Below are positions 18,584 to 27,244 of a stretch of 64,000 nucleotides of DNA, in pieces. The stretch is from Octopus vulgaris (Eukaryota), in contig OX597831.1 of NCBI GenBank assembly GCA_951406725.2, positions 65,968,001 to 66,032,000 on the forward strand, in the 5' to 3' direction. The position numbers and the translations under genes are program-made. Within the stretch, counting starts at the first letter, position 1; each line of letters starts with the position of its first letter. The notes under the pieces were generated by a model. The model had not been told where the DNA came from. It saw only the letters and a program-made list of their open reading frames with translations, and did not search any database.

Positions 18584-18625
18584 GCTACAGACGCGTTTCG
18601 GGGTATTGCCCCTTTTCAATGCAGC
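18584..18625 (-). ncRNA. minimal type-I hammerhead ribozyme, U3-A8 core variant
   Basis: Minus: GCTGCA TTGAAAA GGGG caata CCCC GAAA CGCG TC TGTAGC; 6-bp stem I, palindromic stem III ACGCGU, GUC site. Confidence 0.8.
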
Positions 18626-18946
18626 GTAGCCAGACCAGTAGGTGTCGCTTCTGACAATCTCTGTTCAAAGGTTTTATTTACCTAGCTTCGGTGGAATACA
18701 TCCACTTGTTTTCAATAATAGAAATATTAAAATTACTAAGTCTCTCTAAAAGAGAACAACGGCAGCGTTCCCGGAAAATAATAGTTATCGCCATACTAAT
18801 ATGGCATTCTTATAAAAATAAGAATAAAGCTGTCCGCTTATTAGCTCCATGAGGCAATCGCCTTAAGTTAGCTATTTGATACACAAACTGTATCCATATA
18901 ACCTTTGAACAAGGGAGGTCAGTCGCTCCACACTACTTGGCCGGCA

Positions 18947-18988
18947 GCTACAGACGCGTTTCGGGGTATTGCCCCTTTTCAATGCAGC
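18947..18988 (-). ncRNA. second identical copy of the U3-A8 hammerhead
   Basis: Identical motif 363 bp away. Confidence 0.8.
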
Positions 18989-19201
18989 GTAGCCAGACCA
19001 AGTAGTGTGGAGCAACTGACCTCCCTTGTTCAAAGGTTATATGGATACAGTTTGTGTATCAAATAGCTAACTTAAGGCGATGGCCTCATGGAGCTAATAA
19101 GCGGACAGCTTTATTCTTATTTTTATAAGAATGCCATATTAGTATGGCAATAACTATTATATATATATATATATTTATATTTATATAACAATTGCAGCGT
19201 G

Positions 19202-19332
19202 ATATATATATATATATATATATATATATATATATATATATATATATATATATATATATATATATATATATATATATATATATATATATATATATATATA
19301 TATATATATATATATATATATATATATATATA
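19202..19332. repeat. (TA)n
   Basis: Read directly from the sequence. Confidence 0.95.
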
Positions 19333-19347
19333 TTTATTTATTTTATC

Positions 19348-19735
19348 TTATACATGTTTCAGTTATAAAACTGTGGCCATGCTGGAGCACCAGCTTGAAG
19401 AAATTTAGTTGAATGAATTGGTCTCAGAATTTATTATTGTTTGTAAAGCCTGGTACTTATTTAGTTGGACTCTTTTTTGCTGAACTGCTAAGTTCTGGGG
19501 GATATAAACACACCAACGCCAGTTGCCACTCGGTGGGGTGGGGGACAAACACATGCACATACATGTATATGATGAGCTTCTTTCAGTTTTCATCTACGAA
19601 ATCCACTTGCAAAGTTTTGGTTGGTGCAAGGCAATAGTAAAAGACATTTGCCCAAGGTGCCATGTAGTGAGACTGAACTTGGAACCATGTGGTTCGGAAG
19701 CAAACTTCTCTTTACACAGCCACACCTGTACCTTT
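19348..19735 (-). mobile_element. SINE family A, older diverged copy
   Basis: Diverged match to the consensus. Confidence 0.8.
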
Positions 19736-19841
19736 ATATAAATATATATGTATGTATGTGTGTGTGTATATATATATATATATCGCCATGATAGATCGTT
19801 AGCCACTACACACATTTTTTTCTCTCCTTGTTTTTTTCTGT

Positions 19842-19883
19842 GTCCCTTTCTGTAGAAGAGCATAGGCTCGAAACGTAAAAGAC
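19842..19883 (+). ncRNA. hammerhead-like motif in a short element (about 19785-19972) inserted in (TA)n
   Basis: gtcccTTT CTGTAGA a GAGC atag GCTC GAAA CG TA AAAgac; A6 is altered. Confidence 0.45.
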
Positions 19884-20549
19884 TTTTTCTATTCCTGAGC
19901 ATTATATTAATACATCTGTTTGTTTTGTACGCTACCTGTCTTCATCTTTTGTTTTTTTCATAAACTCTCCCTATATATATATATATATATACATATATAT
20001 ATATATATGATGATGATGATATATATATATATATATATTCATATTCAAATATGAATTAGAAGCAGTATTGAACACGCATACACAAGGTATGTGTTTTGCT
20101 AGTTTGTGGGAAGGCTGCACTTGTAAGCAGAAGAGAATATGTTCTCTTCATGCACCTGATGTTAAAACACCTGGAAGTCATACACAAGCAAGGTGACTGA
20201 CACTAGATCCCATTCAGAAGTGATAGACATTGCTGTTTCATCAATTTTTGTGACTTGTCAAAACTGCATACCTGAAATGAGGTCCAATGCTGCTCAAGCT
20301 ATTTTTAATTCATGTTTGAATATATATATGTATGAAAGACAATTTTGATGCATTTTTCCACATTTTCTCAGTATCTCCACAACACCCCAACACCCACACA
20401 CATGTATGTGTGTGTGTGTAAATAGTTATACATATACAGAATGATTCTTGAAGCGCAAGAATCTTAACAACAATGCATCTATCATTCTTAATATATTCCG
20501 GTAGATTTGAAGATGAATATCTAGCCATTGTTGTTTTATTGTCATCAGC

Positions 20550-23750: not shown

Positions 23751-25199
23751 ATATTGTTATATATATATATATATATATATATATATATATACACATATAT
23801 GTATACACACACACAATCACAAACACACACACACACATATATATATATATATATATATATATATGTATATACATATATATATACATATATGTATACTTAT
23901 ATATATATGTATATAAATATATGTATACTTATATATATATGTACATATATATATGTATACTATATATATATGTATATATATATATATATGTATATATATA
24001 CATAAATGTATACATATATATATGATTCCAAGTGTGGCATAGGCATCAAAGAACACAAATGTCATTTAAAATCTGTTACAACTGTTTCACTGGCATTCTA
24101 TTGTTGCATTTATAGATTACATCTTAGCATAAAATCCACCAAGCTCAGGTAAAATTTTTAAACATGCATAAACAGGCAAGGTAAAACCTAGAAGATGATC
24201 GATTCACCAACCTAACTTCCTTGAAACATCTGAACTAGTTTTGTGTCACACGTTTGTTGACAATTCCTAGGCCTTCATCATCATTAATTTTTTTTTTTTT
24301 TTTTTTTTTTGCTGCTAGGTTGTGTAAAATGACTGTAATTACAATTCTTTCACCATTCATTATCAAAGCTGTAAAATATAGGATAAACAATTAATGTTCA
24401 TATTTTATGTGTGAAAATAAAGAATAAACAAGTTGTACGGAATTAATGATACCGTTTGGTGATACATGTTACCAAAAATCATCAGTGAAACTCTGAAAAG
24501 AATTTTGACTCAACCTGATACACACATATACATTCACACACACACATGCATGCACACACACACACACACACACACACACACACACACAATCTTATTTATG
24601 TGTGTGTATGTATGTGTGTACTTATTTGTCTCTTCTAAGCACTATAGATACTAGTGAGATGCATTTTTCATGTCTTCTGATCTATTTGGTTCTGTACTGC
24701 TAAGAAACATAAATTCTGTGATGTATTCTATTCCAGGATCATCCAATATGATACTTTCTTTGCTAAGTGATAGCATCTTACTGCACATCATACCGTTTAT
24801 TTTCATGACCCATTTTTATATCTATTTGTTTAGTGGATATTTTCAATTTGTTAAAGATTGTGGATATTAAGCTTAACATATCAAATATCTTTGTAGAGCA
24901 CATCAATGAACACCAAACTTTTATGAGCCAATTCTTTCAGTTTCTTTAATGATACATTTTAGAAGGTTATTGGGAATGGAGGGCGAGAATAGGCAACCTA
25001 GTCTCAGATCATGCATACTTCTGGATATGTATGTGTGTGTGTGTGTGTGTGTGTGTGTGTTTGTGTGTGTGTGTGTGTCAAGGTAGGTGAAAGAATTTAA
25101 TTCACTGTACATTAAAAAGTAAAGTAAGAATGAATATGTAGTGGGTGAAAAATATTAGTTGAAGTTTAATATTATTTTTCCATTTTATTGACAAGCTAT

Positions 25200-25410
25200 C
25201 TTAGTTTCAAATTTGAGCACAAGGCCAGCAACTTCAGAGAAGGGTGTAAGTTGATCACATTGACTTCAGTGCTCAACTGGTACTTATTATTATCAATCCT
25301 GAAAGGATGAAAGGAAAAGTTGACCTTGGAGGAATTTAAACTCTTACTCTGAAGATGGACGAAATGCCACTAAGCATTTTTCCCAATATGCTAATGGTTT
25401 TGCCAGTTTC
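25200..25410 (-). mobile_element. SINE family D, old
   Basis: Diverged GAAAGGATGAAAGG...GACCTTGG...GAATTT core. Confidence 0.7.
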
Positions 25411-25454
25411 AAAGTTATACTGCAATAAAATAACTACTTGTTAAGTAGTTCATT

Positions 25455-26200
25455 GAGAAGTTTGTCTTCATGTGCCCCCTTACTCCGTATTTAAAGCATA
25501 TGTTGGTCTACCCTCCACCATGACTCTCAGTCTGGTCTCATCGGGCAGGACAATTTCTTCTGTCATTTTGTGGAGGTCAGGTAGGATGATAAGGACCATT
25601 ACCTCTAGGCCATGACCCCACCAATTGACCTCCACTGTCTTAGACATTTTCAATATTTTCACCTTCTCCTCTGTGTTGTAGAGGATGGCTGCCATAAGCC
25701 AGTCCAAGTTAATTTCGGGTGGCACTCTCCTTATTCTCACTCTGGCTGCGCGTCTGCCACAGTAAGTTGGCAAGAGTGCCCACTGTGCCGATTTCAAAAT
25801 GGAGTACTTCCTTGCTTTGTTCTCATTAACGCAGCATACCTCTACCATGCCAAATTTTCTTCCTCCGTTATAGAAAGTTGTCACTTCCATAACGTCTTTC
25901 AAACACTTCTCTATTTCTTCCACAGCTGCTATTTCGATTTTCCGTGTTGCCATGTTCAACGTTTGATAGGTTATTATTTTTCTTTCGAAATTTTCTGCCA
26001 CTTCTTTGGCAGGTGTCAATCTCAAACATCCTCCTGCCTTCTTCGATAGGTTGTCAAACATCTTATAATCTATATTTTTTCACCTCCAGCTCCTGTATTT
26101 GCAGCAGTTCCACTGTCAGGCTTTTATCTGTTACCACAGCATAACTGCCGGTCTGGGTCTGCATACTTCTGCTATTCACTGCTTCACCAATAATGGAAAA
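25455..26200 (-). pseudogene. non-LTR retrotransposon ORF1 (gag-like) remnant
   Basis: 193-aa ORF (25480-26061) with VRIRRVPPEI...LRVMVEGRP; after a frameshift, CFKYGVRGHMKTNF (decayed CX2CX4HX4C knuckle). Confidence 0.7.
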
Positions 26201-26366
26201 GCCAAACAAAACTTCCAACGACTTCAATAAATTACAAATTCATGAATTCAGCAATTCAAACAAAGCAACAACTCACATGGGAGTGAAATCCAAACACAAC
26301 TACCTCAGAAGAGTGACAATTGCCAGCTAAGGATCAGACATGATTCCAAACACAAAATACTATACA

Positions 26367-26783
26367 CTCTTTACTCTTTTACTTGTTTCAGTCATTTGAC
26401 TGCAGCCATGCTGGAGCACCGCCTTTAATCAAGCAACTCGACCCCGGGACTTATTCTTTTGTAAGCCCAGTACTTATTCTATCGGTCTCTTTTGCCGAAC
26501 CGCTAAGTGACGGGGACATAAACACACCAGCATCGGTTGTCAAGCAATGCTAGGAGGACAAACATAGACACACACATGCATATATATATATATATATATA
26601 TATATATACACATATATACAACGGGCTTCTTTCAGTTTCCGTCTACCAAATCCACTCCAAAGGCTTTGGTCGGTCCGAGGCTATAGTAGAAGACACTTGC
26701 CCAAGGTGCCACGCAGTGGGACTGAACCCAGAACCATGTGGTTGGTAAACAAGCTACTTACCACACAGCCACTCCTGCACCTA
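26367..26783 (-). mobile_element. SINE family A
   Basis: Multicopy consensus. Confidence 0.9.
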
Positions 26784-27045
26784 TATGCTTTTTCCAGTGA
26801 CAAACAGTCACTGATCTCGAAAAAGGAGAAACAAGCAATAATAAATCTCTGATTGAGATGTAGACAGTAGCAGCAGACATCATGAAGTATATTTACCACA
26901 TAAATGTGAATGACTCATGTGGGATGATGCTACTGCAGTTTATAGCCCCAGGAAGACATCACCTCCAGCTGGCTAATGACACACTGTCTGTGCCCAATCA
27001 GTATTTGTGAAGGGAAACCATCGTTCCCATCTCTAGCCTGATGTG

Positions 27046-27090
27046 ATACACATGGACCTGGGTTTCTGGATAGTAACCCATCATCAGTGT
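27046..27090 (-). ncRNA. hammerhead ribozyme motif abutting (TA)n
   Basis: Minus: CTGATGA TGGG ttacta TCCA GAAA CC ca GG TC; core, stems II and III and GUC intact; stem I 5' arm runs into the TA tract. Confidence 0.6.
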
Positions 27091-27193
27091 ATATATATAT
27101 ATATATATATATATATAATTGCCACATGGAAGGTGTTTATAAGCCATTTAAAAACACAAAAACCGTTAGATTCATTTCAACATTTAAATTTAA

Positions 27194-27244
27194 TTTGTCA
27201 AAATATTTTCTTTGCTTTGAGACCGTGACCTGTTCACTGACAAA
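27194..27244 (-). ncRNA. hammerhead-like motif, G3-C8 core variant, decayed stem II
   Basis: Minus: TTTGTCA GTGAACA ggtcacggtctcaaagcaaa GAAA ATAT T T TGACAAA; 7-bp stem I, palindromic stem III. Confidence 0.5.

What the first reader, a model, noticed from the sequence alone, without database searches (positions are those of the whole stretch)
18584..27244. Three Watson-Crick states of the hammerhead 3:8 core pair in one locus
Seen: CUGANGA (16902, 27046, 37189, 43012, 61067), UUGAAAA (18584, 18947, 20613) and GUGAACA (27194). Inference: natural compensatory covariation of the catalytic tertiary pair implies selection for self-cleavage. It would also explain why searches fixed on CUGANGA miss these families.
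Basis: partly seen in the sequence, partly recalled or inferred. Interest (0 to 1): 0.7.

Follow-up and report, generated by a model that had tools for sequence, protein, structure and literature searches.

The report
Swapped-core hammerhead in Penelope retroelements
The motifs are hammerhead (self-cutting RNA) shapes in the end repeats of several unrelated Penelope-type jumping genes; one abundant family has the two paired core letters swapped, which likely preserves the pair and is predicted to allow slow cutting, but cutting is untested and their meeting in one stretch is likely coincidence.

Summary
All nine motifs exist (six on the minus strand), but they belong to unrelated interspersed repeats. 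Eight fit minimal type I hammerheads of Penelope-like element (PLE) terminal repeats; some copies are decayed. U3-A8 at 18619/18982 is a young 363-nt tandem family, a variant already published. U3-A8 at 20656 is chance decay of a C3-G8 family: 1 of 26 members is U-A, and its inverted partner is A-G. G3-C8 at 27237 is real at family level: 5,052 exact genome matches with a 5-bp stem II, in the terminal repeat of an autonomous RT/GIY-YIG element whose sister lineage (55% protein identity) has C3-G8. Sixteen credible families all have a Watson-Crick 3:8 pair (12 C-G, 3 U-A, 1 G-C). So covariation holds between families; within families copies decay independently. Selection for the fold is likely; for cleavage it is unproven: copy ends avoid the cut site, and other families recurrently carry A9C, A6U or U4C. 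I found no natural G3-C8 in the papers searched, but two key papers were unavailable. This scan noted a G3-C8 PLE family in four other windows of this genome.

The parts
27117..27259 (-). Solo terminal-repeat (pLTR) copy of the G3-C8 PLE family, model positions 1-146 of 205 (short 3' end), between (GA)n and (TA)n tracts
27194..27244 (-). G3-C8 minimal type I hammerhead: stem I 7 bp, core 27237-27231, unpaired G, stem II (decayed in this copy, 5 bp in the family), GAAA, palindromic helix III, U16.1-U17, predicted cut after 27201
18355..19160 (-). Array of a young non-coding 363-nt tandem unit (about 1.9 units, 18355-19042) with an inverted piece (18998-19160, +); 96-99% identical to copies elsewhere; two fixed 3' ends 63 nt apart
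18584..18625 (-). Intact U3-A8 minimal hammerhead, core 18619-18613, predicted cut after 18590
18947..18988 (-). Second intact U3-A8 hammerhead, 363 nt upstream, core 18982-18976, predicted cut after 18953
20613..20662 (-). Decayed copy of an old C3-G8 family; reads U3-A8, likely by two independent transitions; GAAA lost
20881..20945 (+). Head-to-head partner of the 20656 copy, core 20893-20899 reading A3-G8
16896..16958 (+). C3-G8 hammerhead of a dispersed family (11 related hits in fetched loci), stem II apparently with a bulge
27046..27093 (-). C3-G8 hammerhead, 5'-truncated at stem I, of a roughly 353-nt tandem family
37183..37271 (+). C3-G8 hammerhead with long stem-loop II, dispersed family (14 related hits)
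43012..43052 (-). C3-G8 hammerhead-like motif, first stem II pair broken; 0 relatives in fetched loci
61061..61108 (+). C3-G8 hammerhead of the same old family as 20656

Best explanation
The motifs are hammerhead-shaped sequences in the terminal repeats of several unrelated Penelope-like retroelement families, and one autonomous family has G3-C8 fixed in place of C3-G8, likely a compensatory double change kept by selection on the fold and predicted to cut only slowly, as a dimer or with protein help. Shown: family membership, the link to an RT/GIY-YIG ORF, a fixed 3:8 state per family, a C3-G8 sister lineage and covarying stems. Inferred mechanism: the element is transcribed from just upstream of the hammerhead. 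Its own RT starts at two internal sites about 149 and 205 nt from that end, on (TA)n targets, and copies back to the RNA 5' end. This yields the thousands of short, often head-to-head copies. These copies include the sequence upstream of the cut site, so their templates were likely uncut; the ribozyme is probably slow or conditional. New copies are not under selection and decay at positions 3 and 8 independently, so only master-to-master comparisons show covariation.
For: 5,052 exact matches to G3-C8 core plus 5-bp stem II plus GAAA-helix III, 0 for the reversed pattern. Only 14 matches are changed at both 3 and 8, none to C3-G8. 144 of 158 aligned copies are G-C; 13 carry a single change and 1 a gap. 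The motif lies downstream of a GIY-YIG frame in 29 of 30 loci picked by that protein and just upstream of the ORF start in L329 and L332. Open frames reach 1,025 aa. A sister PLE with 55% identity over 815 aa has the same hammerhead layout with C3-G8. That layout with a 6-nt loop II has 1,453 exact matches; 82 of the 100 listed are C-G and none has another Watson-Crick pair (counted by eye). Across 11 hand-picked clade members, 7 of 13 pairs change on both sides, including 3:8; 87% of cells pair, against 25-45% when partners are slid. Of 19 clusters seen at two or more loci, 12 are C-G, 3 U-A and 1 G-C; the other 3 were dropped as a junction artefact (1) or probable chance (2). A rough null for no single-mismatch family gives 0.0005, or 0.02 if the U-A families are one event. 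Between old and young G3-C8 subfamilies, 5 of 15 differences fall in the 9-nt loop II and 1 (an edge indel in a T run) in 42 constrained sites. 3' ends are bimodal: 125 of 239 at 203-205 and 66 at 148-151. In the lab, G3-C8 is the one strong rescue in the core in a full pairwise scan (PMC9901934) and partly rescues a PLE hammerhead (PMC11167929).
Against: No cleavage is shown. Of 62 copies not selected on their 5' part, 24 start at positions 1-3 and none at the cut; of all 239, 2 start at the cut. No U3-A8 array piece starts at its cut either. The same holds for a published canonical PLE hammerhead, so this does not single out G3-C8. Only one G3-C8 origin is seen, and by combinatorics 3 of 9 double changes are Watson-Crick anyway. 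Within the family there is no covariation above shuffle (332 of 500 shuffles reach the observed value). The alignment consensus fold did not recover stem II because of CpG decay. G3 can pair with U17 and extend stem I (probability 0.67), a possible inactive trap. The young sister lineage has A9C, and other families recurrently carry A6U or U4C, so core changes expected to hurt catalysis do spread here. The low divergence outside loop II (9 of 152 sites) gives the subfamily test little power.
Confidence: 0.7

Rival explanations
1. The G3-C8 motif is a dead or non-catalytic relic. The fold is kept as a protein-binding or 5'-leader structure, or simply hitch-hikes, and the swap is a lucky double change in one successful master element.
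For: Copies derive from uncut RNA. In vitro PLE insertion does not need cleavage (PMC11167929). A9C is fixed in a young sister lineage with intact ORFs. A6U and U4C recur in other families. Naiads proliferate without canonical hammerheads (PMC8557442). A G3-U17 trap is possible.
Against: All other core positions, both stems and the helix III palindrome are intact in both subfamilies. No credible family has a 3:8 mismatch. The swap needs two transversions and is the one change known to rescue activity.
Confidence: 0.22
2. The G3-C8 motif is a fully efficient ribozyme that routinely cuts tandem transcripts into units or circles.
For: Intact fold in thousands of copies. A locus with five tandem copies of the repeat, L021, exists. 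The U3-A8 363-nt unit folds as a strongly self-paired circle, z = -7.3.
Against: Copy ends avoid the cut site. The 205-nt G3-C8 unit folds no better than shuffles, z about +0.5. Minimal PLE hammerheads cut poorly in vitro (PMC4209133). The swap rescues only partly.
Confidence: 0.06
3. The motifs are chance heptamers or decay products with no family-level meaning.
For: True for 20656. Bare heptamers are common.
Against: Family-level folds and genome counts with zero control hits.
Confidence: 0.02

Closest known systems
Minimal type I hammerheads in pLTRs of metazoan Penelope-like elements (Cervera and de la Pena 2014, PMC4209133; read parts 1-2 of 4 of the text and searched one of two supplement files)
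   Same: Type I layout, tiny palindromic helix III implying dimers, an unpaired base between A9 and stem II, G10.1-C11.1, thousands of solo and opposed copies, and a U3-A8 variant that the standard descriptor missed (about 1,300 hits in Schistosoma).
   Different: No G3-C8 in the parts read. Their consensus has H, not G, as the unpaired base; this clade has G.
Natural core variants (Perreault et al. 2011, PMC3088659; read section 8 and passages)
   Same: Natural C3-G8 to U3-A8 covariation, and natural core deviations such as A6C with low activity.
   Different: Section 8 names only U3-A8 as natural 3:8 covariation; the figures were not visible.
Engineered C3G/G8C rescue (Roberts et al. 2023, PMC9901934; Frangieh et al. 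2024, PMC11167929; passages, plus part 1 of 4 of the latter)
   Same: The same swap; it rescues cleavage partly, including in a PLE hammerhead. Two internal RT start sites and uncut templates match the two 3' ends and intact 5' parts seen here.
   Different: Laboratory mutants, not a natural fixed state in an amplifying lineage.
Neptune/Nematis-type EN+ PLEs (Craig et al. 2021, PMC8557442; passages)
   Same: [quoted passage not shown]
   Different: The clade was assigned only from the linker seen in the translation; no tree was built.
Non-LTR retrozymes (Cervera and de la Pena 2020, PMC7229834; passages)
   Same: For the U3-A8 family only: a 363-nt non-coding tandem unit, one hammerhead per unit, predicted self-paired circle.
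   Different: Retrozymes there carry canonical hammerheads with loop-loop contacts. This unit has a minimal U3-A8 motif, PLE-type inversions and two 3' ends; circles are not shown.

Membership tests
Hammerhead ribozyme (G3-C8 family) | Core U4 G5 A6 N7, A9, G12 A13 A14, A15.1-U16.1, H17 | tested here: met
   Majority base at each position in 158 copies, from 142 (G12, a CpG site) to 158
Hammerhead ribozyme (G3-C8 family) | C3-G8 identity (strict consensus) | tested here: not met
   G3-C8 in 144 of 158 copies; 0 C3-G8 among 14 double variants
Hammerhead ribozyme (G3-C8 family) | Watson-Crick pair possible between 3 and 8 | tested here: met
Hammerhead ribozyme (G3-C8 family) | Stems I and II flanking the core | tested here: met
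   7 bp and 5 bp, pair probability 0.94-1.0 in an intact copy; covary with the sister clade; stem II lost in the window copy
Hammerhead ribozyme (G3-C8 family) | Helix III | tested here: inconclusive
   Only a 6-nt A/U palindrome, usable in a dimer; cofolding two copies did not give the dimer hammerhead fold
Hammerhead ribozyme (G3-C8 family) | Site-specific self-cleavage | not testable with these tools
   Indirect test negative: copy 5' ends are not at the cut; only contigs were available for RNA
Hammerhead ribozyme (U3-A8 363-nt family) | Core, Watson-Crick 3:8 pair, stems I and II, palindromic helix III | tested here: met
Hammerhead ribozyme (20656 copy as a U3-A8 type) | U3-A8 fixed in the family, intact GAAA | tested here: not met
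   26 members: 14 C-G, 5 U-G, 4 C-A, 1 U-A (itself), 1 A-G, 1 gap; GAAA lost
Penelope-like element (G3-C8 family) | Single ORF with RT and C-terminal GIY-YIG endonuclease | tested here: met
   1,025-aa frame; PF01541 E 1.8e-5 above cut-off; RT motifs read from the translation (motif names recalled); no Pfam RT hit
Penelope-like element (G3-C8 family) | pLTR on both sides of the ORF, inverted 5'-truncated segments, tail | tested here: met
Penelope-like element (G3-C8 family) | Placement in a PLE clade by RT phylogeny | not tested
   No reference RTs at hand; Cys-rich linker suggests Neptune/Nematis
Non-LTR retrozyme (U3-A8 363-nt family) | 150-450-nt non-coding tandem unit with one hammerhead | tested here: met
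   363 nt; longest Met ORF 38 aa
Non-LTR retrozyme (U3-A8 363-nt family) | Canonical hammerhead and circular RNA in vivo | not testable with these tools
   Circle only predicted, z -7.3; the motif is of the minimal type

The most novel reading that the evidence does not exclude
G3-C8 is a natural, active third state of the hammerhead core pair. This PLE clade repeatedly down-tunes its ribozyme (G3-C8, and A9C in the sister lineage; A6U and U4C in other families) because its RT copies uncut RNA, so the genome holds a natural allelic series linking cleavage rate to retrotransposition.
Probability: 0.3. Interest if true: 0.62.

Novelty: new variant of a known kind. Interest (0 to 1): 0.4.

Why it matters
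A natural G3-C8 core in an autonomous element with thousands of copies would complete the natural evidence for the 3:8 tertiary pair. It also means hammerhead censuses should allow any Watson-Crick pair there. More usefully, sister lineages with canonical, swapped and A9C cores allow a direct test of the open question of whether PLE hammerheads must cut at all. The U3-A8 part and the point about missed families are already in print, and the co-location is ordinary.

Tried and rejected
Rfam scan: 0 hits, for canonical copies too, so uninformative. A loose G3-C8 pattern was too noisy: 42,752 hits against 27,442 for the reversed pattern. A search for a C3-G8 subfamily inside the G3-C8 family found none. 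A diverged-looking copy (L280) led only back to the same family. 20656 as a third U3-A8 family was rejected. 5' ends at the cut site as a footprint of cleavage were not found. The 205-nt unit as a structured circle was rejected, z about +0.5. RNA evidence: no RNA holder listed. Four runs guessed to be RNA hold the stretch, but only as contigs, which cannot show ends, strand or level, and no splice joint was seen. Phage collection: no match. U17 as an adaptation against a G3-C17 trap was considered but not claimed: the young C3-G8 sister also has U17, and one U3-A8 family has A17. The random genome sample stayed at 800 kb, so rarer families may be missed. Not available: Lunse 2017, Przybilski and Hammann 2007, Arkhipova 2017, and file 1 of the PMC4209133 supplement. 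Any of these could mention a natural G3-C8.
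Full report
Observation. The window is G000:C18:65968001-66032000 of a 2.8-Gb animal genome, rich in microsatellites and interspersed repeats. All nine heptamers exist. Three are on the + strand at the stated places; six are on the minus strand with position 3 at 27087, 43046, 18619, 18982, 20656 and 27237. Bare heptamers are common: 34, 104 and 16 for the C-G, U-A and G-C types, against 22, 76 and 23 in shuffles. Only the surrounding fold counts. A strict type I descriptor, open at positions 3 and 8, passes 18619 and 18982 in the window. In 800 kb of evenly spaced genome it gives 22 hits (17 C-G, 2 U-A, 3 weak non-pairs), against 0 reversed and 2 and 3 shuffled. Rfam finds none of them.

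The three claimed U3-A8 sites are two different things. 18619 and 18982 are intact motifs 363 nt apart in a young non-coding tandem unit. It has at least 1,112 candidate places, and the best-scoring copies are 98-99% identical. Its longest Met ORF is 38 aa. Its arrays stop at two fixed 3' ends 63 nt apart (unit positions about 175 and 238), and no 5' start lies at the predicted cut. It folds as a self-paired circle, z -7.3. 20656 is a decayed member of an old family that also includes 61067. Among 26 aligned members 14 are C-G, 5 U-G, 4 C-A, 1 A-G, 1 gapped and only the query U-A. Its head-to-head partner at 20893 is A-G, and its GAAA is lost.

The G3-C8 site. The window copy (27117-27259, minus) has lost stem II, but the family has not. 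There are 5,052 exact genome matches to core plus 5-bp stem II plus GAAA-palindrome, and 0 for the reversed pattern. An intact copy folds stems I and II with probability 0.94-1.0. Only 14 matches differ at both 3 and 8, none to C-G; 4 are Watson-Crick. Of 158 aligned copies (pattern-selected loci L086-L115 and L196-L209 left out), 144 are G-C. There is no covariation among copies, and the alignment fold misses stem II because of CpG decay. This is what unselected dead copies should show.

What carries it. Some copies extend upstream through a branch-point-like motif and a microsatellite-rich region into a GIY-YIG frame. The motif follows that frame in 29 of 30 loci picked by the protein and precedes the ORF start in L329 and L332. 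Open frames reach 1,025 aa, with RT motifs (names recalled) and PF01541. 3' ends are bimodal (125 of 239 at 203-205, 66 at 148-151), and head-to-head pairs and TA flanks are common. This is the PLE pLTR-and-tail pattern (PMC11167929, PMC8557442). The swap persists across an older subfamily (4.7% mean divergence) and a younger one (1.5%). These differ at 15 sites: 5 in the 9-nt loop II, 1 edge indel in 42 constrained sites, 9 in the other 152. That is suggestive, not strong.

Covariation between families. A sister PLE, 55% identical over 815 aa, has the same hammerhead layout with C3-G8. That layout with a 6-nt loop has 1,453 exact matches; 82 of the 100 listed are C-G and none has another Watson-Crick pair (by eye). 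In 11 hand-picked clade members, 7 of 13 pairs change on both sides, including 3:8; relatedness inflates this. A relaxed scan of 1.98 Mb of fetched DNA, of which 0.8 Mb is random, gave 19 clusters at two or more loci: 12 mostly C-G, 3 U-A and 1 G-C. I dropped three: one artefact of inverted junctions and two two-member clusters that need a second core defect. A rough null for no single-mismatch family is 0.0005, or 0.02 if the U-A families share one origin. C3-G8 is likely ancestral by parsimony (inference).

Does it cut? Unknown. In favour: G3-C8 is the only strong core rescue in a full pairwise scan (PMC9901934, passages) and partly rescues a PLE hammerhead. Against efficient cutting: 24 of 62 copies not selected on their 5' part start at positions 1-3 and none at the cut; 2 of all 239 start at the cut. 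A canonical PLE hammerhead also leaves no such ends and is dispensable for insertion in vitro. G3 can pair with U17 (0.67), like the inactive C3-G17 trap (PMC3884650, passages). The young sister lineage has A9C, and other families recurrently show A6U or U4C. So the data support selection on the pair and fold in master elements; they do not prove selection for cleavage. Sequencing runs were contigs only and none is on record as RNA.

Comparison and novelty. Natural U3-A8 was reported by Perreault 2011 (section 8). It was reported in PLEs by Cervera and de la Pena 2014, who noted that their descriptor had missed it (parts 1-2 of 4). I found no natural G3-C8 in seven full-text searches or in passages of PMC6155905, PMC6765202, PMC7229834, PMC8495972, PMC10085705 and PMC13725137. 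This scan has already noted a G3-C8 PLE family in four other windows of this genome and a G3-C8 claim in a phage. Those notes came after my own reading and are not independent support.

Verdict. A real, fixed G3-C8 variant of a known kind of PLE hammerhead, alongside a known U3-A8 variant and one false example. The co-location is likely coincidence and cleavage is untested. Interest 0.4.

Noticed in passing
L358:1655-1700 and window about 700-754 (-): A young sister PLE (open frame 1,312 aa, about 4.6-kb tandem) has A9 changed to C in its hammerhead core. 15 of 16 clustered copies carry it, while relatives with the same layout keep A9. The window holds a decayed copy.
   Followed up: partly
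L118, L139, L173, L208 (A6U); L136, L166, L176, L191 (U4C); window about 42103 (+): Other hammerhead families show recurrent A6U (with N7 varying) or U4C cores at many loci. U4C sits at a CpG-like context and was not tested further.
   Followed up: partly
L242:2170-2150 (-); 485 genome matches: The sharp 5' end of the short G3-C8 copies coincides with a branch-point-like motif, pyrimidine tract and YAG. It could be a splice acceptor or an initiator (motif names recalled). 18 of 47 short copies add 'GA' there, possibly a cap-copied G.
   Followed up: partly
L117:3083-4871; L322; L231; window 27046-27093: A roughly 353-359-nt C3-G8 tandem family resembles the U3-A8 363-nt unit in size, loop II and predicted circular fold (z -5.1). 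Sequence similarity is weak, 22 of 27 nt over the motif. One insertion (L231) reads U3-A8 in both copies.
   Followed up: partly
L041, L050, L103, L172, L229, L244; L159, L240: Two further U3-A8 families unrelated in flanks to the 363-nt unit.
   Followed up: partly
window about 18310-18330 and 19180-19200: The U3-A8 array is flanked on both sides by a short piece matching the short 3' end of the G3-C8 repeat within TA tracts, perhaps a duplicated target made of an older insertion.
   Followed up: no
L021: Five tandem G3-C8 terminal repeats separated by (TA)n tracts.
   Followed up: no
window about 25490-26150 (-): A stretch that reads by eye like a degenerate coding fragment of another mobile element; not translated or searched.
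   Followed up: no
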